A DNA stretch of 24,547 nt from a virus (taxonomy: Duplodnaviria; Heunggongvirae; Uroviricota; Caudoviricetes): IMG/VR virus record IMGVR_UViG_2706794689_000010; one strand, given 5' to 3'. The position numbers and the translations under genes were made by a program. The notes beneath the pieces were generated by a model. The model was not told the origin of the DNA. It worked only from the letters and a program-made list of their open reading frames with translations, and did no database searches. Numbering within the stretch: position 1 is the first letter of the stretch; the number at the start of each line of letters is the position of its first letter. Below, piece after piece: positions 2,372 to 23,123 of the stretch.

Positions 2372-2431
2372 CGTAGTGCCTGCAACCGTCTCCCGGATAA
2401 ATGCCGAGATAACCTTTGCACCTGAACTCAC
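2372..2431 (-). CDS. 5' end of a gene with strong RBS (AGGAGG, 5-nt spacer, GTG start); body hidden in N block
   Basis: Reads MSSGAKVISAFIRETVAGTT and then enters mask 2121-2371; frame differs from the visible tail-tube segment, so either a separate small gene or the tail protein start with an unseen frame change. Confidence 0.3.
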
Positions 2432-2457
2432 AGGAGCCTCCTATGTCATTAATTGCG

Positions 2458-2850
2458 CTAGAGCGCGCGATATGGAATTTGAAGATTAAGCTGGAACCAG
2501 CCATTCTTTTCGCCAACGGCTATTGAGGAAACAGCCTGGTAACTGAGACGATCGTCATCCTGAAACTCAAACAGTTCCCGCAATTTATCGGCTGTCTCAG
2601 TAATGAGTTTTGAACCAGAACCTGCGGGGACAAATAACTGAATAATGATTATCCCCGTGCGATAAACAACCGGCCCCGCGCCAATTTCATTAACTCCAGC
2701 CTGCCCGGGAATATTACTTAACCGCGCCCAGATTAACTTACCGGAAGGATCGAACGTTGGCCCGTTCGGATACAATACGTCTTTTCCATCAATAATCGTC
2801 TGTGCCGTCATTCTGGAAATAACCGTATTTCTGATTTCAGTAAACTTCAT
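2458..2850 (-). CDS. tail terminator / tail component protein
   Basis: 130-aa ORF MKFTEIRNTVISRMTAQTIIDGKDVLYPNGPTFDPSGKL...; overlaps upstream gene by 4 nt (translational coupling); position in neck/tail module. Confidence 0.5.
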   Translation of the reverse strand: MKFTEIRNTVISRMTAQTIIDGKDVLYPNGPTFDPSGKLIWARLSNIPGQAGVNEIGAGPVVYRTGIIIIQLFVPAGSGSKLITETADKLRELFEFQDDDRLSYQAVSSIAVGEKNGWFQLNLQIPYRAL

Positions 2851-3227
2851 TTGTAAGCCTGTAAAACACCATGAAAAGCGTTGGCATACACGCCAGTTGG
2901 CGCTTGTTGTGAATGACCGTTTTCAAGAGCCTCTGCATAAGGAAGGTTATTCTGGATATAAATAACCCCGTAATTTGCAGCTTTCGAAATAACCCCGATC
3001 CCACGCTGAACAGCAATCGTACCGTTCGGATCCACGTTATCAGATATACCAAAATCGGGATGCTGTAACGACACCAGGTTGTTATTTCTGAAACGTCCGG
3101 TATCAACCGGAGCAGCAATATCAATAGCAGTAAGAATCTGCATAGCGATGTAGCGAATCTTCAGCCCTACATCTTCCTCAATCATCCCGGCAAATATTGA
3201 CGGTTCTATATCCCATGCCTTTGCCAT
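2847..3227 (-). CDS. HK97 gp10-like head-tail joining protein
   Basis: 126 aa; C-terminal NNLPYAEALENGHSQQAPTGV resembles the HK97 gp10 family signature; tightly packed with neighbours. Confidence 0.5.
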   Translation of the reverse strand: MAKAWDIEPSIFAGMIEEDVGLKIRYIAMQILTAIDIAAPVDTGRFRNNNLVSLQHPDFGISDNVDPNGTIAVQRGIGVISKAANYGVIYIQNNLPYAEALENGHSQQAPTGVYANAFHGVLQAYK

Positions 3228-3611
3228 TTACGCTCTCCTTAACTGGATAGAGTAAACTGATGCGGAAGGATCTACACTTGCTGTAATTACCTCGTATCGT
3301 TGTAACTGCCTTGATACAGGATCATAAATCTCAATAATATGGTCGACAGCTGGTTTATCCGTAACCTCGCATACCAGAGCGGTTAATTTAAGGTCACCAT
3401 GCAAAATATTAATCCCATCAATTCTGCCCAGCTTATAACGTGTCAACACGCCTCGCCCGGTATAGATTGCGGTTGATTCGCCGCCAGTTTCCGTCACAGG
3501 ATCCCAGTGCCGGTGCGTAACGTAAGAACCAGAAAAATCACTCACGGCGTCCGCTAAATCCTCATCAAAAGCAGCGGCAACCTCTGACTGAATCTCTTCA
3601 CGAAGCCCCAT
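3228..3611 (-). CDS. head closure / head-tail connector protein
   Basis: 127-aa ORF directly abutting neighbours (stop/start overlap at 3611); position between connector and gp10-like gene. Confidence 0.45.
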   Translation of the reverse strand: MGLREEIQSEVAAAFDEDLADAVSDFSGSYVTHRHWDPVTETGGESTAIYTGRGVLTRYKLGRIDGINILHGDLKLTALVCEVTDKPAVDHIIEIYDPVSRQLQRYEVITASVDPSASVYSIQLRRA

Positions 3612-4006
3612 TATCCCCCCCTCACAACCCTGACTTGTGAGCGACTAAGTCCGTACGGTTTCAGCAGTGCTATCGCAAGCTGTAAATCGGGTTCAAGCAA
3701 TGCAGTGCTGTTTGCTGGCAACTCAGAAAATGATTTCGATACACTGACCCCGTCAGCCGACACGGCTTTACTGATAACAACGCCAGAATCATTTTTCTGC
3801 TGAAACAACTTACCGAATGAGGCAATTCTGGCTGCATATGCTCCCGCAAGTTTTACCTCTTCCGGAATACGGGATGGGTTAATTTTCAGGTTGAAGCCAT
3901 TAAGCCAGGCATTAGCCATTAAAACAGCTTTATTTTTAGCGTTCTCACTCGTCCAGGCGTTCCCAAACGCATTATCAACGTCATCACAGGTCACGTAAGT
4001 GATCAT
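3611..4006 (-). CDS. head-tail adaptor (connector) protein
   Basis: 131-aa ORF MITYVTCDDVDNAFGNAWTSENAKNKAV...; first gene after capsid and small ORF; typical adaptor position. Confidence 0.45.
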   Translation of the reverse strand: MITYVTCDDVDNAFGNAWTSENAKNKAVLMANAWLNGFNLKINPSRIPEEVKLAGAYAARIASFGKLFQQKNDSGVVISKAVSADGVSVSKSFSELPANSTALLEPDLQLAIALLKPYGLSRSQVRVVRGG

Positions 4007-4009
4007 GTG

Positions 4010-4186
4010 TTACTCCTGAGTTTTCCAGCCCATAGCCTTCCAGTTGTCAACTTCATCAGGATGAACATTAGCGATAGTTGGTGCGCCGGGAAACATCTGA
4101 TAATCGGTCACCATAACCACTAACTCAATTTGCGTTTTTTGTGCGGCTTCACGCTGTGCTCTTTGCTCTTTAGTTAATCCGGCCAT
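4010..4186 (-). CDS. small head-module protein (58 aa), unknown function
   Basis: ORF MAGLTKEQRAQREAAQKTQIELVVMVTDYQMFPGAPTIANVHPDEVDNWKAMGWKTQE fills the gap between capsid terminator and adaptor gene; G-rich RBS with a short spacer; below the 60-aa cutoff of the ORF track. Confidence 0.35.
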   Translation of the reverse strand: MAGLTKEQRAQREAAQKTQIELVVMVTDYQMFPGAPTIANVHPDEVDNWKAMGWKTQE

Positions 4187-4196
4187 ATGCCCCCCA

Positions 4197-4218
4197 TTAA
4201 AAATGGGGCCGAAGCCCC
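4197..4218 (-). terminator. rho-independent terminator after major capsid gene (UUCG tetraloop)
   Basis: Minus-strand transcript: ggggc-uucg-gcccc followed by auuuuua; lies between capsid stop (4229) and the next start (4186). Confidence 0.5.
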
Positions 4219-4228
4219 GTTTGAATGT

Positions 4229-5367
4229 TTAACCAAGAATCAGACAACCATGTGCCGGCTTCACTGATGAAACACCCCATGCCAGTCCAACTTCATAGCG
4301 CACCTGGCGATACTGACGATACAGTGCAATCTGGAACGTAATCCCTGAAATCGGGTCCGTAACATTCATTACATCATCAGCATTATCGCCACCTTCCGGC
4401 ATTGCCGGAGTACGGGATGCCAGCAGAAACGCGTTGCGATCAAACGCCATATTTGCAGTAAAGGCCCCAACAACTGTGATGGCAGTATCATCGGCCAGAT
4501 CCTGACGCAGTCCGGGCGCTGCAAGAGTAATCAGATTGCTGGTCGCTGCTGCCACAACATACTGATTCGGATCACCAGCGAACGTAACAATCTGACCTGC
4601 AGAAATACTCCCCGAACCAGTATCAATGGAAATAAGAACATCGCCTTCTTTTTTCTCTCCATTCACGAGATAACCAGTTGCAGCAACCTTTGGCGCTCGT
4701 TTCACACCTGCCGAACTGTGAATATTGAATCCCTCCAGACGCCCCAACACGCCCTCACGCAGTAGCTGTTCAGTGCCGGATTCATTCACTTTAAACAATA
4801 CAGACTGTTTTCCGCGCAAATTAGCAATGGCAGTGGAGCCAAGCACCATCTGCAGATCGGTTGTCGGTGCGCCGTTATCCTCCAGAACCTGACGAGCCAG
4901 AGCAGCATCAGAAAGATCATCTTTAACACCAAACGGCGTTGTCCCTGCGGTTCCCACGGCGCGGGAAGCACCGAAATACAACGCACCAAGATCAGCCTCA
5001 ACCTCGTTTGCAAGGGCGCGAAAAGCCTGCTTGAACTGATCAGCCAGAATGGTGTTGTAAGTCCCTGAAGGGCCAAGAGCCAGTTGTTCTTCACCATTCC
5101 ATTTAACCGGTGCCATTTTGGATTTAGTAATTTTTACATCAACAGTGCCAATATTTTGATCACCGGTATTCGGAGCTGACGGCCCCGGTACGATATCTTC
5201 GGTTTTCGCCTCAGGCGCAACTGGCGCGGTTACCGTCTGATCTTTTGCTGCGGCGTCAGCTTTTGCGTTTTTTGCTACCGCAGGGATAAAACCTACCTGC
5301 TCACGGGATACAACATCCAGGGCGGTATAAATAGTCGGGATCAACCCGGTCAGGGTATTTCCAGCCA
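4229..5367 (-). CDS. major capsid protein
   Basis: 379 aa from ATG at 5367 (AAGGAA 9 nt upstream), MAGNTLTGLIPTIYTALDVVSREQVGF...; the track's longer ORF (to 5461) has no RBS; strong terminator immediately downstream; sits after the scaffold-like gene. Confidence 0.7.
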
Positions 5368-5466
5368 TAATTAAATATTCCTTAAAAATTTGCGTAATTG
5401 TGAATAGATGGAGTAATGAGCTATCCAGCCCTGACACCAGCTCCCATCCGGAAGCTGACAAATGTG

Positions 5467-6011
5467 TTAATCAACGATTGTGATACCGTCTTTCAATGCG
5501 TTTTGCTTACCTGCAACATCCAGTGCATCAAAAGCAGAGCGTTTCATCGTTTTCTGACCAATATCATGCTGTGTCGGACGGGAGCCGCCGCCATTGTTGC
5601 CACTGGCTTTCAGGATGTAGTCTTTCTGAGGGTAATTTTCGACAAGGAACTCCAGCGCCTCATCAAACTGCGCCAGTTCGCCAGGCTTCGCGCGGGAATA
5701 AATTTTGTTGCCGGAAGCGTCATAAGCAACGATCCTCCCTTCTTCCACTTTGAATGCCTGCCCGAAGCGGGCTTGTAATAAATCTGCCGGAATCGCAATT
5801 TTATCGGCAATATATTTTGAACCCGCAAAACTACCGCCAATCATAGAATCGTAAAGCTGCTTCTCCAGCATCTGAGAGCGTTGCTTTTCTTCATCTAATT
5901 GCTGCTGAAAATTTTTCGTAATTTCTGCCTTAACCTGGTCAACCTGTCCCGCATCGAGCAGCTTTTTCTGGTCGATTTTTGACAGCATTTCCAGTGCCTC
6001 GATCGCCTTCT
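5467..6011 (-). CDS. putative scaffolding protein (N-terminus hidden in N block 6012-6285)
   Basis: Visible 181 aa are charged and coiled-coil-like (KAIEALEMLSKIDQKKLLDAGQVDQVKAEITKNFQQQLDEEKQRSQMLEKQLYD...); position between Mu-F-like gene and major capsid gene. Confidence 0.45.
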
Positions 6012-6301
6012 NNNNNNNNNNNNNNNNNNNNNNNNNNNNNNNNNNNNNNNNNNNNNNNNNNNNNNNNNNNNNNNNNNNNNNNNNNNNNNNNNNNNNNNNN
6101 NNNNNNNNNNNNNNNNNNNNNNNNNNNNNNNNNNNNNNNNNNNNNNNNNNNNNNNNNNNNNNNNNNNNNNNNNNNNNNNNNNNNNNNNNNNNNNNNNNNN
6201 NNNNNNNNNNNNNNNNNNNNNNNNNNNNNNNNNNNNNNNNNNNNNNNNNNNNNNNNNNNNNNNNNNNNNNNNNNNNNNNNNNNNNCCATCCGGATCGCAG
6301 C

Positions 6302-6329
6302 AATAAAAAAGGCCACCCGAAGGTAGCCT
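6302..6329 (-). terminator. rho-independent terminator (UUCG tetraloop) between Mu-F-like and scaffold genes
   Basis: Minus-strand transcript: aggcuacc-uucg-gguggccu (8-bp stem with one G-U pair) followed by uuuuuuauu. Confidence 0.5.
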
Positions 6330-6348
6330 GTTGTAATAAATGATTTAT

Positions 6349-7464
6349 TTAAATCCCTGCTTTTCTGAATACCTGTGCATCACGCTCACGGAGCTGCTTC
6401 AGCGTCAGCCATTCGCCTTTATCGGTGTAAAATTCATCTGGCGACATACCACCATCCCGAATCAGCTTTGCTCGGCTTTCCCCCACAATCTGTTTTTGTC
6501 TGGTGTAAGGCTGACGCAAAAACCATTCCCTGTAGGTTGTATCTCCGGCCACCACGCCATCCATGCTGGCCCGCTCAGCCGGGGAAATATCGCGAACATC
6601 AATACCCAGTTCCTTCGCTGATTTCAGAATGAACGTTTCCGTTGAGCGGCAGCAGAAATGAATTTTTCCCGGCCCCTGCAAATAAGGCACGCTGTGACCT
6701 ACAGGTTTATTATTCAGCGTATATTTGAGGCGATCCCTGATTCGACATTGTGGCGTAGTACGATTATCAAGCGTTGATAACCATTGCTTACCCTTAATCA
6801 AATCATTATTCGCGCTGGCAAAACTCTCACGGGCAGTAGCAGCAAGATGTCCAACCGCTGTTTTTGCAATGCTGGCCGCATTAGCCCGGCTCATCTGCAA
6901 TGCACCATCCTGAAATCCCTTACTGACATGTCCCCGAATTTTTCTTGCGATCTGCTCATTGGTATCCCCCAGCAAAAAACCCTGACGCACTGTATTTGTT
7001 ATGCGTCTGAGCCGATCCGCCTCAAGATCTGAGGCCCACTCACTGAGCAGTCGTCCCTGGAATGGTCGCGCCATTGCAGCGGCATAAAGTGCATCAGGAG
7101 AGATACCAACCAGAGGGTGAACATCAGCAACAAAATCAGGTAGCATAGAATCAAACAGACTTAACTGATAACCAGCCTCATAAATTGCCAGCTCGTTCAG
7201 CTCTCCGGAGAGACTGGTAAACATGCTGTTAATAGCAGTGCGGTTAACCTCTCTGACGCTCGCCAGAAGTGACTCCAGGCGCTTAACGGTAAAACTACCT
7301 GGATCGAGGCTGTCCAGTGCTATCAGCAGGCGAGCAGTAAGTTCCGCATCGCTGTCATTCAGTATTTTCACCATTCTGGCAGCCACGCCAGTGCTATAGC
7401 GGGATATCCAGACTGCATGAGCAATTGATTCATCACGCAGCCGTTCATTCACGGTTTGCATCAT
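6349..7464 (-). CDS. phage Mu F-like minor head (head morphogenesis) protein
   Basis: 371 aa; contains STLDNRTTPQCRIRDRLKY, typical of the Mu gpF / SPP1 gp7 family; directly follows the portal gene with a 20-nt overlap. Confidence 0.75.
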   Translation of the reverse strand: MMQTVNERLRDESIAHAVWISRYSTGVAARMVKILNDSDAELTARLLIALDSLDPGSFTVKRLESLLASVREVNRTAINSMFTSLSGELNELAIYEAGYQLSLFDSMLPDFVADVHPLVGISPDALYAAAMARPFQGRLLSEWASDLEADRLRRITNTVRQGFLLGDTNEQIARKIRGHVSKGFQDGALQMSRANAASIAKTAVGHLAATARESFASANNDLIKGKQWLSTLDNRTTPQCRIRDRLKYTLNNKPVGHSVPYLQGPGKIHFCCRSTETFILKSAKELGIDVRDISPAERASMDGVVAGDTTYREWFLRQPYTRQKQIVGESRAKLIRDGGMSPDEFYTDKGEWLTLKQLRERDAQVFRKAGI

Positions 7465-8851
7465 TGATTTCCATCAGCATTACACTCTGATTTTTTAATT
7501 CATCGATCACTTCCTCTGGACGGGAATCCTGATCGATAAATTTCAACGCCTGCAACACCCGAACCGCATCAATCTGACGTATATCACCGCCCTGACGCAA
7601 TGACTGAACAGCCAGCGCGGAGGATGAGTCAAACACCTGGGCAGATACATCCAGTTCAGTGCGCACATCCACATTGCCACCGCAACTCTCTCCGATCCAT
7701 TCCGCCATTATCTGGAGAATATTATCGAGGGCATCTTCGAGGGAGTTCGCCATTGTATAAAGCGGCGAGTTTTCCTGCATTCGCTCTTCATTAGTCTGAT
7801 CAACAGATTTGGTGGATGTATTTTCAGCACGCAGAAGTTTAGCGCCGGCATGACGCATCTGATTTTCCAGCTTCTCAAGTGATGTTTCGCCAGATTCTAT
7901 CGCTGCGCCACTATGTTCAACATATTCGAGGCCATTTTTTGTTCTGTCCTCAAAAATCGTAGCGGTGGATGCACCAACCGTCAGTTCTTCATTCCTGTCC
8001 AGCCCGTAGGCCACCAGCAATGGAACGCGGGCAACATGAAGAATATTGTCCTGCTCGCTCTGGCTTTGCCAGTGCTTGATATTCAGCAAGCCAAGATTAA
8101 GCAATGGCGGTGTACCACGCATAAATCCTGTTTTCTTCGTGTACAGTGTTACCAGAGGAATATCATCACGGCTGGTATTCCATGACTCATGAAGCGTCCA
8201 GACAGATTCGCCATTAGTGCCTTCGCTACGTCGATAAATTTCAACTCGACGGGGCATAATATGGCGGATCTGCTCCACCTTCTTCTGCCCGAAATCATCA
8301 CCATCAATAATGATGACCTCTTTTATACGCAAATCAGTGAGAACAACTTTCCCTTTTTCAACTTTCGATTTCCATCCAATAACCTGGCGTGGATTCAGCA
8401 TCGTAACGTACGGACGACCACCGGTCGCGTTTTCATCGGCTTTTGTCCGAATCTCTTTCATATCCGTTCGTGGATAGTCCACCAGCGCATGTGCCACACC
8501 ATACTGAAATGCGAGGCTGAAAAATTGCTGCGCCCACACATCCAGTCGGCTCCCCTCCATGTCGATATTTTCTGCATATTCCCTGATTTTTGCCGGCGTT
8601 TCCTCACTCAATACTGTCGGCTCTGCAAATATGCGCCCAATATTTTGCTTGATGCTTTCTTCATACACAGGAAGTAGCGTAGCCACAGACAGGCGTTTTT
8701 TATAAGCGTCTTCATCTTCGTTAGGCCATTTTGGGAGATAATTTTCCCCCTGCCTGCGCATTTCAAGCGTACCGCCCATCAGTGCGTCGTTAATATCCCA
8801 CGCCTCCAGCATATCGTTATAGTCGAGGTTGGGTGTTGATATATCAGCCAT
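7445..8851 (-). CDS. portal protein
   Basis: 468 aa, acidic; starts 3 nt after the TerL stop; size and position (TerL - portal - MuF) are canonical. Confidence 0.75.
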   Translation of the reverse strand: MADISTPNLDYNDMLEAWDINDALMGGTLEMRRQGENYLPKWPNEDEDAYKKRLSVATLLPVYEESIKQNIGRIFAEPTVLSEETPAKIREYAENIDMEGSRLDVWAQQFFSLAFQYGVAHALVDYPRTDMKEIRTKADENATGGRPYVTMLNPRQVIGWKSKVEKGKVVLTDLRIKEVIIIDGDDFGQKKVEQIRHIMPRRVEIYRRSEGTNGESVWTLHESWNTSRDDIPLVTLYTKKTGFMRGTPPLLNLGLLNIKHWQSQSEQDNILHVARVPLLVAYGLDRNEELTVGASTATIFEDRTKNGLEYVEHSGAAIESGETSLEKLENQMRHAGAKLLRAENTSTKSVDQTNEERMQENSPLYTMANSLEDALDNILQIMAEWIGESCGGNVDVRTELDVSAQVFDSSSALAVQSLRQGGDIRQIDAVRVLQALKFIDQDSRPEEVIDELKNQSVMLMEINDANRE

Positions 8852-13279: not shown

Positions 13280-14632
13280 TTAGGAGCGCCAAAAAAAACC
13301 TGAAAACAATATAATAACAGGATAAATTTCAAGGCGACCAAGAATCATAGCTATGCACATTAAATATTTTGCAATGTCATTAAGCACTCCGAATGACGAT
13401 GCAGTAGCCCCAAAACCTAATCCCATATTATTAATACATGCAGCCACTGTTGCAAATGATGTAAGAAAATCATATCCCATACCATTTAACACCAGTATAA
13501 AAAACACCGTGAAGAGAGTATAAAGAAAAAAGAAACTCCATACAGACCTCATTACACGATCTGTAACTATCTTCCCTCCTACATTTACACTCAACAACGC
13601 TCTGGGATGAGAAAGCTGATTTATCTCGTGTTTGCTTTGTTTGAAAAGTATAAGAAATCGAAGTGACTTAATTCCACCACAGGTTGAACCTATACATCCC
13701 CCAAAGAAACTTGACAACAGCAAAAACACTATCGTGTGCGTGGGCCAGTTTGCATAATCCTGCGTAGCTAAACCATTATCAGTGAGCATGGAGCTGGCAA
13801 GAAAAAACGAATGAATAAAACTTCCATGCAAGTCATACATACCTATATGCCAGACCTGGAAAGAGGTAACAATGATCACCCCTAAGGCTATTAACAGAAA
13901 GAAACGAAGTTCAATATCTCTGATTAAAGGTTTTATCGTTTTTCTGCTAATAACAATATACCAAAGAGTGAAGTTGAAAGCCGATAGCAGGGAAAAAGAA
14001 CCAGCCACCAGCTCAACCAAATAGTTATTAAAATATCCGATACTCTCGCTATGAGTTGAGAAACCACCAAGCGAAACTGTGGAAATCCCGTGACAAATAG
14101 CATCAAACAAAGGCATTCCTGCAAGTCTATAACAGACAATACAAGCAATACCTAATAAAGAATAAGTTATCCACAGTGTCCGTGACGTATCGGCCAGGCG
14201 GGGAGTGAGTTTGTCATCCTTAAATGGCCCCGGCATTTCTGACTGATAAAGCTTTGCACCACCAATACCCAATAATGGCAATACTGCAACCGCCAGAACA
14301 ATAACTCCTAAACCACCTATAAAATTTAACTGTGACCGATAGTACAAATATGCCCGAGGTAATGAACTAACATCATCAATTACAGTTGCTCCTGTTGTTG
14401 TTATTCCAGAAACCCCTTCAAACAGAGCATCAATGAACGTTAAATTAAGTTCTGAGTCAATCCATAAAGGGAATGCACTAATAACAGAAAACAAAATCCA
14501 AAACATTACAATTATAATAAACCCATCACGGGTACGTAATTGAATGCCAGATTTCTTAGTTGTATACCACGCTCCGCCACCAATGCAAAAAAATATAACG
14601 AAAGTTATAAAGAAAACGAACAGGCTTTTTTC
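13280..14632 (-). CDS. trkG: Trk-system K+ uptake protein TrkG/TrkH family (N-terminus in N block 14633-14885)
   Basis: Polytopic membrane protein with repeated pore-loop glycine motifs (SGITTTGATV, GGLGVIVLAVAVLPLLGIGGAKLYQSEMPGP, GGFSTH, FGGCIGSTCGGIKSLRFLILFKQ) typical of TrkH/TrkG; A/T-rich codon usage; sits directly downstream of Rz/Rz1 as trkG does in Rac. Confidence 0.8.
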   Translation of the reverse strand, partial: EKSLFVFFITFVIFFCIGGGAWYTTKKSGIQLRTRDGFIIIVMFWILFSVISAFPLWIDSELNLTFIDALFEGVSGITTTGATVIDDVSSLPRAYLYYRSQLNFIGGLGVIVLAVAVLPLLGIGGAKLYQSEMPGPFKDDKLTPRLADTSRTLWITYSLLGIACIVCYRLAGMPLFDAICHGISTVSLGGFSTHSESIGYFNNYLVELVAGSFSLLSAFNFTLWYIVISRKTIKPLIRDIELRFFLLIALGVIIVTSFQVWHIGMYDLHGSFIHSFFLASSMLTDNGLATQDYANWPTHTIVFLLLSSFFGGCIGSTCGGIKSLRFLILFKQSKHEINQLSHPRALLSVNVGGKIVTDRVMRSVWSFFFLYTLFTVFFILVLNGMGYDFLTSFATVAACINNMGLGFGATASSFGVLNDIAKYLMCIAMILGRLEIYPVIILFSGFFWRS

Positions 14633-14886
14633 NNNNNNNNNNNNNNNNNNNNNNNNNNNNNNNNNNNNNNNNNNNNNNNNNNNNNNNNNNNNNNNNNNNN
14701 NNNNNNNNNNNNNNNNNNNNNNNNNNNNNNNNNNNNNNNNNNNNNNNNNNNNNNNNNNNNNNNNNNNNNNNNNNNNNNNNNNNNNNNNNNNNNNNNNNNN
14801 NNNNNNNNNNNNNNNNNNNNNNNNNNNNNNNNNNNNNNNNNNNNNNNNNNNNNNNNNNNNNNNNNNNNNNNNNNNNNNNNNNNNNT

Positions 14887-15351
14887 TTACTTTAAACACT
14901 GCTCGGTTATGTATTGCTGAGCACCTTCAAGTTGGGCCTGCATCATTACCAGTCGTTCCCGGAGGGTGAAATAATCCCGTTCAGCGGTGTCTGCCAGTCG
15001 GGGGGAGGCTGCATTATCCACGCCGGAGGCGGTGGTGGCTTCACGCACTGACTGACAGACTGCTTTGATGTGCAACCGACGACGACCAGCGGCAACATCA
15101 TCACGCAGAGCATCATTTTCAGCTTTCGCATCAGCTAACTCCTTCGTGTATTTTGCATCGAGCGCAGCAACATCACGCTGACGCATCTGCATGTCAGTAA
15201 TTGCCGCGTTCGCCAGCTTCAGTTCTCTGGCATTTTTGTCGCGCTGGGCTTTGTAGGTAATGGCGTTATCACGGTAATGATTAACAGCCCATGACAGGCA
15301 GACGATGATGCAGATAACCAGAGCGGAGATAATCGCGGTTACTCTGTTCAT
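14887..15351 (-). CDS. Rz: Rz i-spanin
   Basis: [68 protein letters not shown]... is near-identical to lambda Rz as recalled; N-terminal TM segment; start overlaps the endolysin stop. Confidence 0.9.
14946..15131 (-). CDS. Rz1: Rz1 o-spanin lipoprotein (embedded in Rz, +1 frame)
   Basis: [57 protein letters not shown]: lipobox VVGC plus proline-rich stretch, matching lambda Rz1. Confidence 0.85.
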
Positions 15352-18968: not shown

Positions 18969-19770
18969 CGCACGTCCCCGCCAGCCTGNNNNNNNNNNNN
19001 NNNNNNNNNNNNNNNNNNNNNNNNNNNNNNNNNNNNNNNNNNNNNNNNNNNNNNNNNNNNNNNNNNNNNNNNNNNNNNNNNNNNNNNNNNNNNNNNNNNN
19101 NNNNNNNNNNNNNNNNNNNNNNNNNNNNNNNNNNNNNNNNNNNNNNNNNNNNNNNNNNNNNNNNNNNNNNNNNNNNNNNNNNNNNNNNNNNNNNNNNNNN
19201 NNNNNNNNNNNNNNNNNNNNNNNNNNNNNNNNNNNNNNNNNNNNNNNNNNNNNNNNNNNNNNNNNNNNNNNNNNNNNNNNNAACGAAACCAGACAGCAGT
19301 TCTCGTTCGCGAGGCGTGNNNNNNNNNNNNNNNNNNNNNNNNNNNNNNNNNNNNNNNNNNNNNNNNNNNNNNNNNNNNNNNNNNNNNNNNNNNNNNNNNN
19401 NNNNNNNNNNNNNNNNNNNNNNNNNNNNNNNNNNNNNNNNNNNNNNNNNNNNNNNNNNNNNNNNNNNNNNNNNNNNNNNNNNNNNNNNNNNNNNNNNNNN
19501 NNNNNNNNNNNNNNNNNNNNNNNNNNNNNNNNNNNNNNNNNNNNNNNNNNNNNNNNNNNNNNNNNNNNNNNGTAAAGCCCCACATAGCATGAACAAACAC
19601 TACATATCAAATAGCTGGTACAAGGATAGAAATACGACACTTATTATTAAAAACGATTAGATAAATTACATTTTAATGTTATGCAAAAGTTCTTTTTTAT
19701 CATAACATTTCAATAAAAGCATTACAGATGCAATCATCCCGTCATCATCAATTATTTAAGGTGGTTAAAC

Positions 19771-19857
19771 ATGGAAAATAACAAGTTCGCACATCTCGCT
19801 CCTTTTTTATCCGTAATCCTTTTCGCTTGTTGTTTTATATGGGCATTATTTTTATAA
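19771..19857 (+). CDS. candidate small hydrophobic peptide (28 aa)
   Basis: AAGGTGG RBS 6 nt upstream of ATG; MENNKFAHLAPFLSVILFACCFIWALFL; in an A/T-rich intergenic island on the plus strand. Confidence 0.3.
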   Translation: MENNKFAHLAPFLSVILFACCFIWALFL

Positions 19858-20258
19858 AGTAGCCACATGATAAGTTGCTGGAATCATATTTCCCACTCAA
19901 GTCATTAACATTTGATAAGATATATCTAAAAGGACGCCTTTACATTATTTATGCGTNNNNNNNNNNNNNNNNNNNNNNNNNNNNNNNNNNNNNNNNNNNN
20001 NNNNNNNNNNNNNNNNNNNNNNNNNNNNNNNNNNNNNNNNNNNNNNNNNNNNNNNNNNNNNNNNNNNNNNNNNNNNNNNNNNNNNNNNNNNNNNNNNNNN
20101 NNNNNNNNNNNNNNNNNNNNNNNNNNNNNNNNNNNNNNNNNNNNNNNNNNNNNNNNNNNNNNNNNNNNNNNNNNNNNNNNNNNNNNNNNNNNNNNNNNNN
20201 NNNNNNNNNNNCTATCTTCTCCTCTAATCAACATATCAATTATGTGTTTCATAACAGC

Positions 20259-20300
20259 TTGACATAACCCTCCAAAAGATGCATTTTTAATGCATGTTTT
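20259..20300 (+). promoter_or_regulatory. promoter (-35 TTGACA at 20259-20264) with overlapping NsrR-type inverted-repeat operator
   Basis: AAGATGCATTT-T-TAATGCATGTT (20276-20298), core ATGCATT-ttt-AATGCAT, resembles the remembered NsrR consensus; ends 15 nt upstream of the yeaR-like start codon. Confidence 0.45.
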
Positions 20301-20313
20301 GGAGGAGGTGGTT

Positions 20314-20652
20314 ATGACACACAAGAGAATTCCTAAAGATTGGGTAATCAAACGCTCAACTCCGTTCTTCACAAAAGAGAACGTACCTTCAGCGTTATTA
20401 ACACATCATAATACAGCAGCAGGTGTTTTTGGGCAGTTGTGCGTAATGGAAGGCACTGTAACATATTATGGTTTTACTGATGAGAATGCTACTGAACCGG
20501 AGATAAAAGTAGTCATTAATGCTGGCGCTTTTGCAACAAGCCCACCACAATACTGGCACCGTGTTGAACTAAGCGATGATGCTCAGTTTAATATTAACTT
20601 TTGGGTCGCTCCAGACTTTTCGGGCGAAAAAGTCTATAGCACCAAAAAATAG
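20314..20652 (+). CDS. YeaR-like protein (DUF1971, TehB C-terminal-domain family)
   Basis: GGAGGAGG RBS 5 nt upstream; MTHKRIPKDWVIKRSTPFFTKENVPSALLTHHNTAAGVFGQLCVMEGTVTYYGFTDENATEPEIKVVINAGAFATSPPQYWHRVELSDDAQFNINFWVAPDF parallels remembered E. coli YeaR; only substantial plus-strand gene in the window. Confidence 0.6.
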   Translation: MTHKRIPKDWVIKRSTPFFTKENVPSALLTHHNTAAGVFGQLCVMEGTVTYYGFTDENATEPEIKVVINAGAFATSPPQYWHRVELSDDAQFNINFWVAPDFSGEKVYSTKK

Positions 20653-20681
20653 ATGATCATATTAAAAATGCTTTAACAGTC

Positions 20682-20718
20682 AGACCCGGCAGGGCTATCC
20701 CCGACGGGTCTCATTTTT
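20682..20718 (+). terminator. rho-independent terminator after yeaR-like gene
   Basis: agacccg...cgggtct hairpin followed by cattttt. Confidence 0.5.
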
Positions 20719-20870
20719 GTAAATATATTGGTTCTACATTGACAGGAGACTTCAACCATAAGAAGTAATCTGAATACTTGAGCAATAAATTTACTTAAGA
20801 TTAATGAGCGCACCTTGCCGGACAAAGATAAACCAAGGTAACACCTTTTTTCTAGCCAGTATGTAATCAA

Positions 20871-21089
20871 TCAGAAAGCCGCTCCATAAGAACAACAGCA
20901 AGACAATAAATTGCCATTACAGCCGCAATAGCCAGCGCACATTTGAGAACCAGCACGACAACCCCCTGTATTAGACGCACACCAGTCCTGATAAATATGA
21001 GGCTGTCTCGTCAGTGATTCAATACAACTATTGGGTATAGTTTCTGTGATTTTATTCTGTAGAAATGGAACACAACAACCAGTCACCAC
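20871..21089 (-). CDS. candidate Cys/Gly-rich small protein (about 72 aa)
   Basis: AAGGAA then GTG 6 nt downstream; ...VVTGCCVPFLQNKITETIPNSCIESLTRQPHIYQDWCASNTGGCRAGSQMCAGYCGCNGNLLSCCCSYGAAF (about 12 Cys); could equally be a chance ORF. Confidence 0.2.
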   Translation of the reverse strand: MVTGCCVPFLQNKITETIPNSCIESLTRQPHIYQDWCASNTGGCRAGSQMCAGYCGCNGNLLSCCCSYGAAF

Positions 21090-21272: not shown

Positions 21273-22274
21273 TTAGTAATCTGCGTGTTTCGCACTTTTC
21301 AGAAATGCTTTCATATTTTCATTAGGTCGCTCAATTTCGAAGTTACTTCCATATAACTCTTGTAATTTTGGCCATAACTTACTTAATAACCCTCTCCTGC
21401 GATAAAATGGATGTATCCAAACGGTAGATAGGTACGGAGAATTTGCATTTGAATTGTTTATTGTGACCAGCCCAACTAAACATTGTCGATAACCACTATT
21501 ATCCATTGATTGTATTTCTTCGACGAATGGATACGCGATTACATCAGTCCAACCATGATCGGTTGTATCCCATTGCATTCCGTCATGACATTCCTTCGAC
21601 TGATAGCGGCGTAAAGCTACACACGCGAGCTTTTGCCAATCTGGAGAATTAATTGTGATCTCTTCATCGTATGACGCGCCTATTGGAGCGGGTATTGGTC
21701 TGATTAATCCAGCATGGCATTCATCATAGAACTTCATGTTTCCCTCAGAAACGTTGTGTACGTTGGGTTGCTCCATGTGTGCGCCATTCAAAAATAGCTC
21801 TGATAGTAGTGTATCTACACTGTAATCTTTATTGATTATTGTCGGCTTAGAGTTTTTCTTATTAAGGCCGCGAGTAACGATTTTTTGATCAATGTTAACA
21901 ACATGGAATAATCCGTCGGGGAGGCTAGCGAACCACGATGGGGCATCGGACCAGAATAGCATGCCTTTTGTACTTCTTAAGAGTTTAATTAAGTTAATAC
22001 AAGCTTCTTCACTAGTCTTGCCGTTGATGCGAAGTATGTTAGGACTAAAGTAATATTCATCCATATCAGGGAATGCAGCTTCGCAAAACTCCTGTACATA
22101 ATTTAGCACCTGGATTCTACAGAGATCATCATAGCTGGTAATAACTAAGGGGGTATCTTCATTACTATTATGATTATCAATAATGCAATCTATAGCGAGA
22201 CTTACTGCTTTGCGTATCACTTCAGTTGAATCTAACGACTCTAAAAATTTTGTCTTTCGTGTGCGAATATCCAT
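21273..22274 (-). CDS. two-domain protein: unknown N-terminal domain plus C-terminal GNAT-fold acetyltransferase-like domain
   Basis: 333 aa; C-terminal CLVGLVTINNSNANSPYLSTVWIHPFYRRRGLLSKLWPKLQELYGSNFEIERPNENMKAFLKS has the GNAT motif-A pattern (beta strand, then R/Q-x-x-G-x-G/A-type loop RRRGLLSKL); A/T-rich; starts 15 nt after the upstream gene stop. Confidence 0.55.
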   Translation of the reverse strand: MDIRTRKTKFLESLDSTEVIRKAVSLAIDCIIDNHNSNEDTPLVITSYDDLCRIQVLNYVQEFCEAAFPDMDEYYFSPNILRINGKTSEEACINLIKLLRSTKGMLFWSDAPSWFASLPDGLFHVVNIDQKIVTRGLNKKNSKPTIINKDYSVDTLLSELFLNGAHMEQPNVHNVSEGNMKFYDECHAGLIRPIPAPIGASYDEEITINSPDWQKLACVALRRYQSKECHDGMQWDTTDHGWTDVIAYPFVEEIQSMDNSGYRQCLVGLVTINNSNANSPYLSTVWIHPFYRRRGLLSKLWPKLQELYGSNFEIERPNENMKAFLKSAKHADY

Positions 22275-22289
22275 GTATGACCTGCGCTA

Positions 22290-23123
22290 TTAAAATTCAT
22301 GAATGAACGGTTTGTCATCTGGTTGCAAAATGGTGGTTTTATTCGTTGCTACATTTAAACTGTTGTAGAGCATAATTGCCAGGTTCGATGCATTTTCAAT
22401 CAGCGTTTCAAGATCCTGGTCTGTAATCACTACGAGGTTCCCTTCTTTATCCTTTCCACCACGATGCACTAAGTGATTTCGATTGAGGGTTGCCAATTCA
22501 ATAGCTTCTATCGGACAGTCTTTTTGTACTTTTATATCGAATGTAGCTTCATAGCGGTCGATTACCTTTTTAGTGCTATGCCAGCTTGCACTGATCAAGT
22601 GTTCCTTGATTGACCTGATTAGCTCTCCCCTAATTTTCTCGATGGGTTCACCCTTGAAAGGCAACGCAGCAATATCTTTGCTTACTTTAAATTCAGTCTT
22701 ACCTTTTTCTATACAATTGGCTATGTAGACATCATCTTTCTCTATAGAATTAATGAATAGCTCAACATAAAGCGTTTCCAAAGCTGTAATAACATTCGTG
22801 TAGAGCAAACTAAGCAAGTGGTTTTTTTGCTGTTGTTCAGTTTTATCTTTTGCAAGTTTTTTTATTTTATCGATATTATCAATGAATTTTAAATACGGAT
22901 TACCGGAAGACGTTACAGCGTCGTAGATATCATCATCGTACCAATCATCTATATTATTTGAGTTTCCAGACCAGTCAAAACATTGTGTTTGTAATTCATC
23001 TACTAATTCCTCAATATACTCAGATTTAACATATTGACCGAAGATGGATTGTAGTTCTTCGCTCGCATCATACGGCCCGCCATATATGTAAGCATAGCCA
23101 CCTTCTCTACTTTCATACGGACA
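22290..23123 (-). CDS. HEPN-like (Rx4H motif) protein, N-terminus hidden in N block 23124-23381
   Basis: Open frame from the mask edge to the stop at 22290; contains ELATLNRNHLVHRGGKDKEG (R-x4-H, HEPN-type RNase signature) within a predicted helical C-terminal region; strongly A/T-rich; same-frame stop at 23382-23384 places the start inside the mask. Confidence 0.5.
   Translation of the reverse strand, partial: CPYESREGGYAYIYGGPYDASEELQSIFGQYVKSEYIEELVDELQTQCFDWSGNSNNIDDWYDDDIYDAVTSSGNPYLKFIDNIDKIKKLAKDKTEQQQKNHLLSLLYTNVITALETLYVELFINSIEKDDVYIANCIEKGKTEFKVSKDIAALPFKGEPIEKIRGELIRSIKEHLISASWHSTKKVIDRYEATFDIKVQKDCPIEAIELATLNRNHLVHRGGKDKEGNLVVITDQDLETLIENASNLAIMLYNSLNVATNKTTILQPDDKPFIHEF

What the first reader, a model, noticed from the sequence alone, without database searches (positions are those of the whole stretch)
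20259..20718. Plus-strand yeaR-like gene with an NsrR-type operator: a nitric-oxide-responsive gene embedded in the prophage
This is the only gene transcribed opposite to the phage genes. It has a perfect -35 (TTGACA) followed by an inverted repeat, AAGATGCATTT-T-TAATGCATGTT, that resembles the NsrR binding motif as I recall it, and its product is a YeaR/DUF1971-family protein. The chromosomal yeaR-yoaG operon is known to be activated by NarL and repressed by NsrR. A prophage therefore appears to have captured a nitrosative-stress-regulated module with its operator intact, which would make expression in the lysogen depend on host NO signalling.
Basis: partly seen in the sequence, partly recalled or inferred. 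Interest (0 to 1): 0.6.

Follow-up and report, generated by a model that had tools for sequence, protein, structure and literature searches.

The report
NO-sensor-controlled accessory gene in prophage
A Rac-like E. coli prophage carries a small stress gene (a relative of Salmonella STM1808, not of yeaR) whose promoter is covered by a near-perfect binding site for the host nitric-oxide sensor NsrR, so the lysogen probably switches it on only under nitrosative stress.

Summary
TTGACA lies at 20259-20264. The repeat AAGATGCATTT-T-TAATGCATGTT lies at 20276-20298. A 112-aa DUF1971 gene runs 20314-20652 on the + strand, with a terminator-like hairpin at 20682-20718.

The repeat scores 26.7 bits on a matrix built from published NsrR ChIP-seq sites. 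Only ytfE scores higher. About 0.0007 such sites are expected per E. coli genome.

The interpretation needs correcting. The gene is not derived from yeaR (41% identity, no yoaG, different promoter layout, no NarL site above chance). It belongs to the subfamily of the Salmonella gene after dsbB (STM1808 position, 79% identical; PDB 3DL3).

Of 54 enterobacterial chromosomal orthologues, 51 carry an NsrR box of at least 19.8 bits (49 of them 23.8 bits or more) at a fixed distance from a conserved -35, over the -10. Homology to the prophage copy runs only from about the -35 to the stop codon.

The gene sits antisense between the replication and antiterminator-Q modules. It is in 464 of 5426 complete E. 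coli genomes and 3 isolated phages.

Most likely it is an NsrR-repressed, NO-induced moron. NsrR binding and NO induction are inferred, not shown.

An unexplained extra: the palindrome extends into the Shine-Dalgarno sequence and is a polymorphism hotspot among phage alleles.

The parts
20259..20264 (+). -35 hexamer TTGACA (perfect consensus)
   Evidence: Read directly. It lies 28-23 nt left of the box centre. In 50 enterobacterial orthologues the T at centre-28 is invariant and the consensus there is TTTACA/TTGACG.
20276..20298 (.). NsrR-type operator, 11-1-11 inverted repeat AAGATGCATTT-T-TAATGCATGTT (centre 20287)
   Evidence: 26.7 bits on a PWM from Mehta et al. 2015 Table 4. P=1.3e-10. 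A homologous box is present in 51 of 54 enterobacterial orthologues at 19.8 bits or more and in all 36 phage-borne alleles with readable upstream sequence at 18 bits or more.
20282..20291 (+). Candidate -10 elements inside the operator: CATTTT (20282-20287, 17-bp spacer) or TTTAAT (20286-20291, 21-bp spacer)
   Evidence: Inference from spacing. Orthologues have TATTTT or TATATT at the first position. Not called by the consensus scan. The transcription start was not mapped.
20269..20305 (.). Extended quasi-palindrome CCTCCAA[box]TTGGAGG; the right arm is the first GGAGG of the SD
   Evidence: RNA hairpin of -25.1 kcal/mol, z=-5.3, if transcribed from upstream. It is the polymorphism hotspot among phage alleles.
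20301..20311 (+). Shine-Dalgarno region GGAGGAGGTGG
   Evidence: Read directly. 3-8 nt upstream of the ATG.
20314..20652 (+). DUF1971 gene, 112 aa, STM1808/3DL3 subfamily (RefSeq WP_000149055.1)
   Evidence: Pfam PF09313, E=2.3e-26. PDB 3DL3, E=3.5e-59. 79% identical to the Salmonella protein encoded after dsbB. H32 and H82 are invariant. PHROG 34268.
20682..20718 (+). Intrinsic-terminator-like hairpin AGACCCG...CGGGTCT followed by CATTTTTG
   Evidence: Fold -19.4 kcal/mol, z=-2.6. Not called by the simple scan because of its long, structured loop.
19597..20258 (.). AT-rich (26-36% GC) non-coding spacer upstream, including masked block 19957-20211 (readable in L001 12258-12512)
   Evidence: No NarL or FNR site beyond chance. 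No Rfam family.

Best explanation
This is a phage 'moron': a self-contained host-type transcription unit (promoter, operator, SD, gene, terminator). It is inserted antisense between the replication/nin-like genes and the DUF1367-DUF1364-antiterminator Q genes of a Rac-like lambdoid prophage.

Its product is a small cupin-like DUF1971 protein. It belongs to the subfamily of Salmonella STM1808, a gene E. coli does not have on its own chromosome.

Proposed mechanism:
1. In the lysogen, the host [4Fe-4S] repressor NsrR binds the 23-bp operator. The operator covers the -10 region and the likely transcription start, so NsrR occludes RNA polymerase.
2. Nitric oxide nitrosylates the NsrR cluster and NsrR leaves.
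3. Sigma-70 polymerase starts from the TTGACA promoter. A short leader with a strong SD gives rapid synthesis of the protein.
4. By analogy with STM1808, the protein helps growth under nitrosative stress.

Shown here: the anatomy, the site's quality and rarity, conservation of the site and its spacing in orthologues, subfamily membership, and prophage context and distribution.

Inferred: NsrR binding, NO induction, the exact -10 and transcription start, and the protein's function.
For: Site quality
- The box scores 26.7 bits. It is second only to ytfE (30.9) and above hcp, yeaR, tehA, ygbA and hmp among published CFT073 sites.
- P = 1.3e-10.

Phylogenetic footprint
- 51 of 54 enterobacterial chromosomal orthologues have a box of at least 19.8 bits; 49 of them score 23.8 bits or more. 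The box lies 15-27 nt upstream of the ATG.
- Information content is 1.69 bits per column inside the box against 0.57 outside. The -35 sits at a fixed distance.
- In 626 kb of orthologue flanks, 51 of 57 hits of at least 18 bits lie exactly there.

Link to an experimentally regulated gene
- The Salmonella orthologue lies in the order fadR-nhaB-dsbB-DUF1971, which is the STM1808 position.
- It carries AAGGTGTATATTAAATACATCTT.
- STM1808 is cited as NsrR-regulated and virulence-related (PMC7527575).
- tehB homologues were predicted as NsrR regulon members in 2005 (PMC1274295).

Module boundaries
- Homology of the prophage copy to chromosomal orthologues runs from about the -35 to the stop codon.

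Context and distribution
- The same position and orientation are seen in phage vB_EcoS-666R9 and in another strain.
- The gene is in 464 of 5426 genomes, while the flanking phage DNA is in 1854.
- All 36 phage-borne alleles with readable upstream sequence keep a box of at least 18 bits at the same place.
Against: - There is no experimental evidence for this copy, and no paper on it in the searchable library.
- The -10 is weak or ambiguous, and the consensus promoter scan did not call the promoter.
- The commonest phage allele has a weaker left half-site (AACACGCATTT, 19.8 bits).
- The upstream DNA is 26-36% GC, so H-NS silencing could dominate (inference).
- The biochemical function of the DUF1971 protein is unknown.
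- STM1808 details (zinc binding, H32/H82) rest on my recollection of Karlinsey et al. 2012, which was not readable here.
Confidence: 0.8

Rival explanations
1. One reading: a captured copy of the chromosomal yeaR(-yoaG) module, activated by NarL and repressed by NsrR.
For: Both proteins are DUF1971. yeaR has an NsrR box, AAATGGTATTTAAAATGCAAATT.
Against: - Only 41% protein identity, and no DNA similarity to yeaR in a 'distant' search of E. coli genomes.
- No + strand ORF of 25 aa or more lies after the stop codon, so there is no yoaG.
- No perfect NarL heptamer. 7-2-7 matches occur at chance frequency: 7 observed against 5.3 expected.
- The box lies over the -10, not over the -35/NarL region as it would in yeaR.
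Confidence: 0.04
2. The palindrome works mainly as a nucleic-acid structure. It could be an mRNA hairpin that sequesters the SD in transcripts starting upstream (translational control or insulation from read-through), or a DNA cruciform at the promoter. NsrR resemblance would be secondary.
For: - The palindrome extends 7 bp beyond the box on each side into GGAGG. As RNA it folds at -25.1 kcal/mol, z=-5.3.
- In Citrobacter, Yokenella and Salmonella orthologues, an 8-10 bp extension of different sequence shows 5 pairs changed on both sides; 0 of 500 shuffles reached this.
Against: - The left arm lies in the -35/-10 spacer, so it is absent from the mRNA of the predicted promoter. That short leader is unstructured (z=+0.4).
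- The extension is absent in Kluyvera, Leclercia and Klebsiella orthologues and broken in phage alleles C and D. Covariation among phage alleles is weak.
- The 23-bp core is conserved in sequence, not merely in pairing.
- There is no T-run after the hairpin, so it is not a terminator.
Confidence: 0.08
3. The operator is a decaying relic. The gene would be silent (H-NS) or constitutive in E. coli lysogens and of no consequence.
For: - The operator region is the most polymorphic stretch of the module: pi 0.12 against 0.0175 in the CDS.
- The commonest allele lost consensus bases in the left half-site.
- The flanks are AT-rich.
Against: - Every readable allele keeps at least 18 bits at the same position, and the right half-site is almost invariant.
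- The CDS is intact in the 34 phage-borne loci where it is 97-100% identical over all 112 residues, plus 2 more divergent loci and 3 isolated phages.
- The -35 and SD flanks are invariant.
Confidence: 0.08

Closest known systems
Salmonella enterica STM1808 (NsrR-regulated DUF1971 gene downstream of dsbB; Karlinsey et al. 2012)
   Same: - 79% protein identity, with H32 and H82 conserved.
- A single-gene unit.
- The NsrR box sits immediately upstream, over the -10.
   Different: - Chromosomal in Salmonella, phage-borne here.
- The box lies 27 nt from the ATG there against 15 nt here.
- The arm extensions differ in sequence.
- Nucleotide identity between the prophage CDS and any sampled orthologue is at most 75%, and synonymous sites are saturated, so this is not a recent transfer.
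E. coli yeaR-yoaG operon (NarL-activated, NsrR-repressed; Lin et al. 2007)
   Same: Same Pfam domain (DUF1971) and the same repressor family logic.
   Different: - 41% identity.
- No yoaG.
- No detectable NarL site.
- Different operator position.
Kluyvera/Leclercia/Pseudescherichia/Buttiauxella chromosomal orthologues
   Same: - Highest identity: 80-82% at protein level. Kluyvera intermedia is highest at nucleotide level (75%).
- Same layout: -35, 11 nt, box, 16-18 nt, ATG.
   Different: They carry a Fur-box-like element (13-17 of 19) just upstream of the -35. The prophage lacks it (11 of 19, chance level). They have TTTACA rather than TTGACA.
PDB 3DL3 ('tellurite resistance protein B', structural-genomics entry) and 3BB6 (YeaR)
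   Same: Sequence homologues with solved structures: E=3.5e-59 and E=1.6e-24.
   Different: No function was established by those entries. The name 'tellurite resistance' comes from the N-terminal domain of some TehB proteins.
Phage morons under host regulators (lambda bor/lom type accessory genes)
   Same: Own promoter and terminator, placement between phage modules, and presence only in a subset of related prophages.
   Different: The controlling host factor here would be the NO sensor NsrR. I found no described example in the searchable literature.

Membership tests
NsrR operator (Enterobacteriaceae 11-1-11 motif) | Match to a matrix of experimentally supported sites at or above the level of known sites | tested here: met
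   26.7 bits. The leave-one-out range of the training sites is 8.7-29.8 bits. P=1.3e-10.
NsrR operator (Enterobacteriaceae 11-1-11 motif) | Position overlapping the core promoter of the regulated gene | tested here: inconclusive
   The box starts 11 nt after a perfect -35 and covers both candidate -10s. This spacing is conserved in 50 orthologues. The transcription start is unmapped, and the consensus scan did not call the promoter.
NsrR operator (Enterobacteriaceae 11-1-11 motif) | Conservation upstream of orthologous genes | tested here: met
   51 of 54 enterobacterial orthologues at 19.8 bits or more. All 36 phage alleles with readable upstream sequence at 18 bits or more. Specificity control.
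NsrR operator (Enterobacteriaceae 11-1-11 motif) | NsrR binding, and derepression by NO or in an nsrR mutant | not testable with these tools
   Needs EMSA, ChIP or reporter assays.
DUF1971 (PF09313) | Score above the Pfam gathering threshold over the full domain | tested here: met
   92 bits against a cutoff of 23.1; profile positions 1-80 of 80.
STM1808 / 3DL3 subfamily of DUF1971 | High identity to the Salmonella gene downstream of dsbB and to 3DL3, clearly above identity to YeaR | tested here: met
   79% to P0014/P0019. 3DL3 E=3.5e-59 against YeaR E=1.6e-24. Gene order fadR-nhaB-dsbB-DUF1971. That this locus is 'STM1808' rests on my knowledge of LT2 locus-tag order.
STM1808 / 3DL3 subfamily of DUF1971 | Conserved His32 and His82 (reported metal ligands) | tested here: met
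   Invariant in a 15-sequence alignment. Their role is recalled from Karlinsey et al. 2012, not read here.
STM1808 / 3DL3 subfamily of DUF1971 | Zinc binding and a contribution to NO resistance | not testable with these tools
   Needs biochemistry or genetics.
yeaR-yoaG operon | Orthology to YeaR | tested here: not met
   41% identity. No DNA match to yeaR.
yeaR-yoaG operon | Downstream yoaG (DUF1869) | tested here: not met
   A terminator follows the stop codon. There is no + strand ORF of 25 aa or more before 21031.
yeaR-yoaG operon | NarL 7-2-7 site upstream of the promoter | tested here: inconclusive
   No perfect heptamer. Matches of 10 of 14 or better occur at chance frequency (7 against 5.3). 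However, the same crude pattern gives the real yeaR site only 10 of 14.
Phage moron | Autonomous promoter and terminator, placement between phage modules, presence in only some related phages | tested here: met
   Anatomy. Antisense placement between the replication and Q modules. The flanks are in 1854 genomes and the gene in 464.

The most novel reading that the evidence does not exclude
A family of temperate E. coli phages performs lysogenic conversion for nitrosative-stress tolerance. They supply an STM1808-type gene that the E. coli chromosome lacks, and they wire it directly to the host NO sensor NsrR. The unusually variable, arm-compensated palindrome around the operator would tune the NO threshold or add a structure-based layer of control.
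Probability: 0.3. Interest if true: 0.65.

Novelty: new member of a known kind. Interest (0 to 1): 0.45.

Why it matters
NO from host inflammation and from nitrate/nitrite respiration is a major stress for gut and urinary E. coli. In Salmonella the homologous gene is part of the NsrR regulon and has been linked to virulence.

About 8.5% of complete E. coli genomes carry this gene, on Rac-like prophages wherever I checked the context. If it is NsrR-controlled and protective, it would be a clear case of a phage extending a host stress regulon. It is easy to test with reporter fusions and competition assays.

The finding also corrects a likely annotation shortcut: 'YeaR-like' or 'TehB family' hides the STM1808 relationship.

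Tried and rejected
- NarL heptamers and 7-2-7 sites, and FNR sites, in the unmasked upstream block: nothing above chance.
- Rfam on the 2-kb region: only a chance miRNA hit at E=0.12.
- Consensus promoter/terminator scan: called neither the promoter nor the terminator because of its strict rules.
- Terminator role for the palindrome: rejected, because no T-run follows it on either strand.
- Phage-repressor operator: rejected, because non-phage chromosomal orthologues carry the same box.
- RNA-hairpin covariation among phage alleles: weak. Three pairs changed on both sides, and 32 of 500 shuffles reached the covariation score.
- Donor identification: no sampled species exceeds 75% nucleotide identity, and synonymous sites are saturated.
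- Literature: Karlinsey et al. 2012 was not held. There are no papers on the phage copy.
- Pfam and NCBIfam on the two small hydrophobic ORFs: no hits.

Full report
**1. What is in the sequence**

The window matches a Rac-like lambdoid prophage of E. coli. It is 100% identical over the region of interest to NZ_CP084096.1. It contains 12 masked blocks of about 250 N each. The block upstream of the finding (19957-20211) can be read in the identical record (L001 12258-12512).

On the + strand I read the following:
- TTGACA at 20259-20264.
- An 11-nt gap.
- The inverted repeat AAGATGCATTT-T-TAATGCATGTT at 20276-20298.
- GGAGGAGGTGG at 20301-20311.
- ATG at 20314 and a stop codon ending at 20652 (112 aa).
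- A hairpin plus T-run at 20682-20718 (-19.4 kcal/mol, z=-2.6).

The product matches Pfam DUF1971 over the whole domain (E=2.3e-26). In the annotated identical record, this is the only CDS on that strand across the window's span.

Two corrections apply. First, the palindrome is longer than described: CCTCCAA[box]TTGGAGG, 20269-20305. Second, the -10 is weak or ambiguous: CATTTT at a 17-bp spacer, or TTTAAT at 21 bp. The simple sigma-70 scan did not call the promoter.

**2. Is the repeat an NsrR site?**

I built a symmetric position weight matrix from 18 sites in Table 4 of Mehta et al. 2015 (PMC5320621). These were the ChIP-seq-positive sites plus yeaR and ygbA.
- The window site scores 26.7 bits. 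It is second only to ytfE (30.9) and above hcp (24.9), tehA (24.4), yeaR (24.1), ygbA (23.3) and hmp (20.8).
- The exact tail probability is 1.3e-10 per position at E. coli composition. That is about 7e-4 expected per 5.2 Mb. It is 2.8e-9 even at 68% AT.
- The next best hit in the window is 14 bits.

**3. What the gene is**

- It is only 41% identical to K-12 YeaR.
- It is 79% identical to a 113-aa Salmonella protein and 73-82% identical to proteins of Kluyvera, Leclercia, Klebsiella, Citrobacter, Vibrio, Aliivibrio and Shewanella.
- The closest solved structure is 3DL3 (E=3.5e-59). YeaR (3BB6) is far behind (E=1.6e-24).
- In Salmonella the gene follows fadR-nhaB-dsbB. By LT2 locus-tag order (my knowledge) this is STM1808.
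- STM1808 is cited as an NsrR-regulon gene with a role in virulence (PMC7527575, citing Karlinsey et al. 2012, which I could not open).
- His32 and His82 are invariant in the alignment. I recall these as the residues needed for zinc binding and NO resistance in STM1808.
- tehB homologues were already predicted as NsrR-regulon members in enterobacteria and Photobacterium in 2005 (PMC1274295).

**4. Phylogenetic footprint**

A scan of one genome per species returned 80 loci.
- Of 54 Enterobacteriaceae orthologues, 51 carry an NsrR box of at least 19.8 bits, and 49 of these score 23.8 bits or more. The box lies 15-27 nt upstream of the start codon. The exceptions are Leclercia adecarboxylata, which has a 1-nt deletion in the box, and two loci whose upstream sequence differs.
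- Most Vibrionaceae orthologues lack a box. Two Photobacterium loci have one.
- Anchored on the box centre, 50 chromosomal orthologues show 1.69 bits per column inside the box against 0.57 outside. T at centre-28 is invariant within a TTTACA/TTGACG -35. TATTTT or TATATT sits at centre-5..0.
- In 626 kb of flanking DNA, 51 of 57 hits of at least 18 bits lie within 80 nt upstream of the gene. The other six are near the gene in Oceanospirillales.
- S. enterica itself carries AAGGTGTATATTAAATACATCTT.

The operator is therefore an ancestral, conserved part of this gene's promoter.

**5. What the phage carries**

- Alignment with the closest orthologues shows homology from about the -35 hexamer to the stop codon and none beyond.
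- The Kluyvera/Leclercia clade has a Fur-box-like element (13-17 of 19) just upstream of the -35. The prophage has only a chance-level match there (11 of 19).
- No NarL 7-2-7 site, perfect heptamer or FNR site above chance is present in the 500 bp upstream.
- No yoaG follows the gene.
- The CDS is 41% GC (GC3 34.5%). It is at most 75% identical at nucleotide level to any sampled orthologue, and synonymous sites are saturated. Capture is therefore old or from an unsampled donor. Kluyvera intermedia is nearest and shares the TTTTTAAT box centre.

**6. Context and distribution**

- The unit lies antisense to the phage genes, between two hypothetical genes next to the replication module and DUF1367-DUF1364-antiterminator Q (PHROG 753).
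- The same arrangement is found in the isolated phage vB_EcoS-666R9 and in strain B20105.
- The gene occurs in 464 of 5426 complete E. coli genomes, all at 90% identity or more, and in three isolated phages.
- The flanking phage DNA occurs in 1854 genomes. The gene is therefore accessory.
- A 'distant' search found no more divergent copy in E. coli. The species thus appears to lack a native orthologue.
- PHROGs lists the family as 'unknown function'.

**7. Mechanism proposed**

Holo-NsrR binds 20276-20298, which covers the -10 and the start site. NO releases it. Sigma-70 polymerase then transcribes a short, unstructured leader (z=+0.4) with a strong SD.

The protein probably acts as in Salmonella, by an unknown biochemical route. 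During lytic growth, convergent early-right transcription would run antisense to the gene (inference).

Confidence that NsrR regulates this unit is about 0.8.

**8. Unexplained**

- The palindrome extends 7 bp on each side into the SD. As RNA it would fold at -25.1 kcal/mol (z=-5.3) and hide the first GGAGG. However, the left arm lies in the -35/-10 spacer, so it should not be in the native mRNA.
- Among 36 phage-borne alleles with readable upstream sequence there are at least 12 haplotypes. Nearly all differences fall in positions -49..-10: pi is 0.12 there, against 0.025 just upstream and 0.0175 in the CDS.
- Some changes are paired across the arms, but alleles C and D break the outer arms, and overall covariation is weak.
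- In Citrobacter, Yokenella and Salmonella, an 8-10 bp extension of a different sequence is kept by changes on both sides. Five pairs changed on both sides, and 0 of 500 shuffles matched this.
- Kluyvera and Klebsiella have no extension.
- Candidate explanations are neutral quasi-palindrome template-switch homogenisation (a known mutational process, from my own knowledge) or a selected hairpin or cruciform.

**9. Verdict**

The NsrR operator and the phage-borne stress module hold. The yeaR origin and the NarL link do not.

This is a new member of a known kind: an NsrR-regulon DUF1971 gene, here as a phage moron. It is moderately interesting and directly testable.

Noticed in passing
window 20269-20305; loci L084-L120; L026-L060, L123: The NsrR box sits inside a longer palindrome whose outer arms differ between lineages. 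The outer arms are a polymorphism hotspot among phage alleles (pi 0.12 against 0.0175 in the CDS). They show compensatory changes in Citrobacter and Salmonella (0 of 500 shuffles).
   Followed up: partly
L004-L025, about 64-66 nt upstream of the ATG (e.g. L004 ~3916-3934): A Fur-box-like element, GATAATGAGATT(C/T)ATTATC (13-17 of 19 to the Fur consensus), lies immediately upstream of the -35 in Kluyvera, Leclercia, Pseudescherichia, Buttiauxella, Enterobacter and Pantoea orthologues. It is absent from the prophage copy and from the Citrobacter/Klebsiella/Salmonella clade. This suggests dual Fur and NsrR control in one clade.
   Followed up: partly
window 19772-19858 (+): An unannotated 28-aa hydrophobic ORF, MENNKFAHLAPFLSVILFACCFIWALFL, has AAGGTGG 7 nt upstream. 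It is open in 39 related loci with only 3 variants. It has no Pfam or NCBIfam match. It could be a small membrane peptide or toxin.
   Followed up: partly
window 20867-20980 (-): An unannotated 37-aa hydrophobic ORF (…VVVLVLKCALAIAAVMAIYCLAVVLMERLSD) lies convergent with the DUF1971 gene and is open in 30 related loci. In other alleles (L122) a truncated Hok/Gef (HokD-like) gene lies just downstream of the DUF1971 gene, in 3' flanking DNA that shows no clear homology to the window's.
   Followed up: partly
window ~13280-14899 (-): trkG (Trk potassium transporter), the classic Rac-prophage cargo gene, lies between the lysis genes and ynaK. So the same prophage carries at least two host-type accessory genes.
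   Followed up: no
window 21273-22274 (-) and 22290-22817 (-): Two conserved phage proteins of unknown function (PHROG 16994 and 17908). The first has a marginal C-terminal GNAT acetyltransferase match (E=9e-4, just below the Pfam cutoff).
   Followed up: no
window 21440-21462: A second, weak NsrR-like match (AATTTGCATTTGAATTGTTTATT, 14 bits) lies inside the 333-aa ORF. It is probably chance.
   Followed up: no
L067, L070, L077 (Neptunomonas, Parendozoicomonas): NsrR-like boxes of 18-23 bits lie 0.7-1 kb upstream or about 1 kb downstream of the DUF1971 gene. This suggests the gene lies in or next to NsrR-controlled operons there too.
   Followed up: no
window 1545-23880: Twelve runs of about 250 N are spaced through the window. 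Relative to NZ_CP084096.1, the window has intact head/portal genes (2372-7742) and lacks the IS2 insertion.
   Followed up: partly
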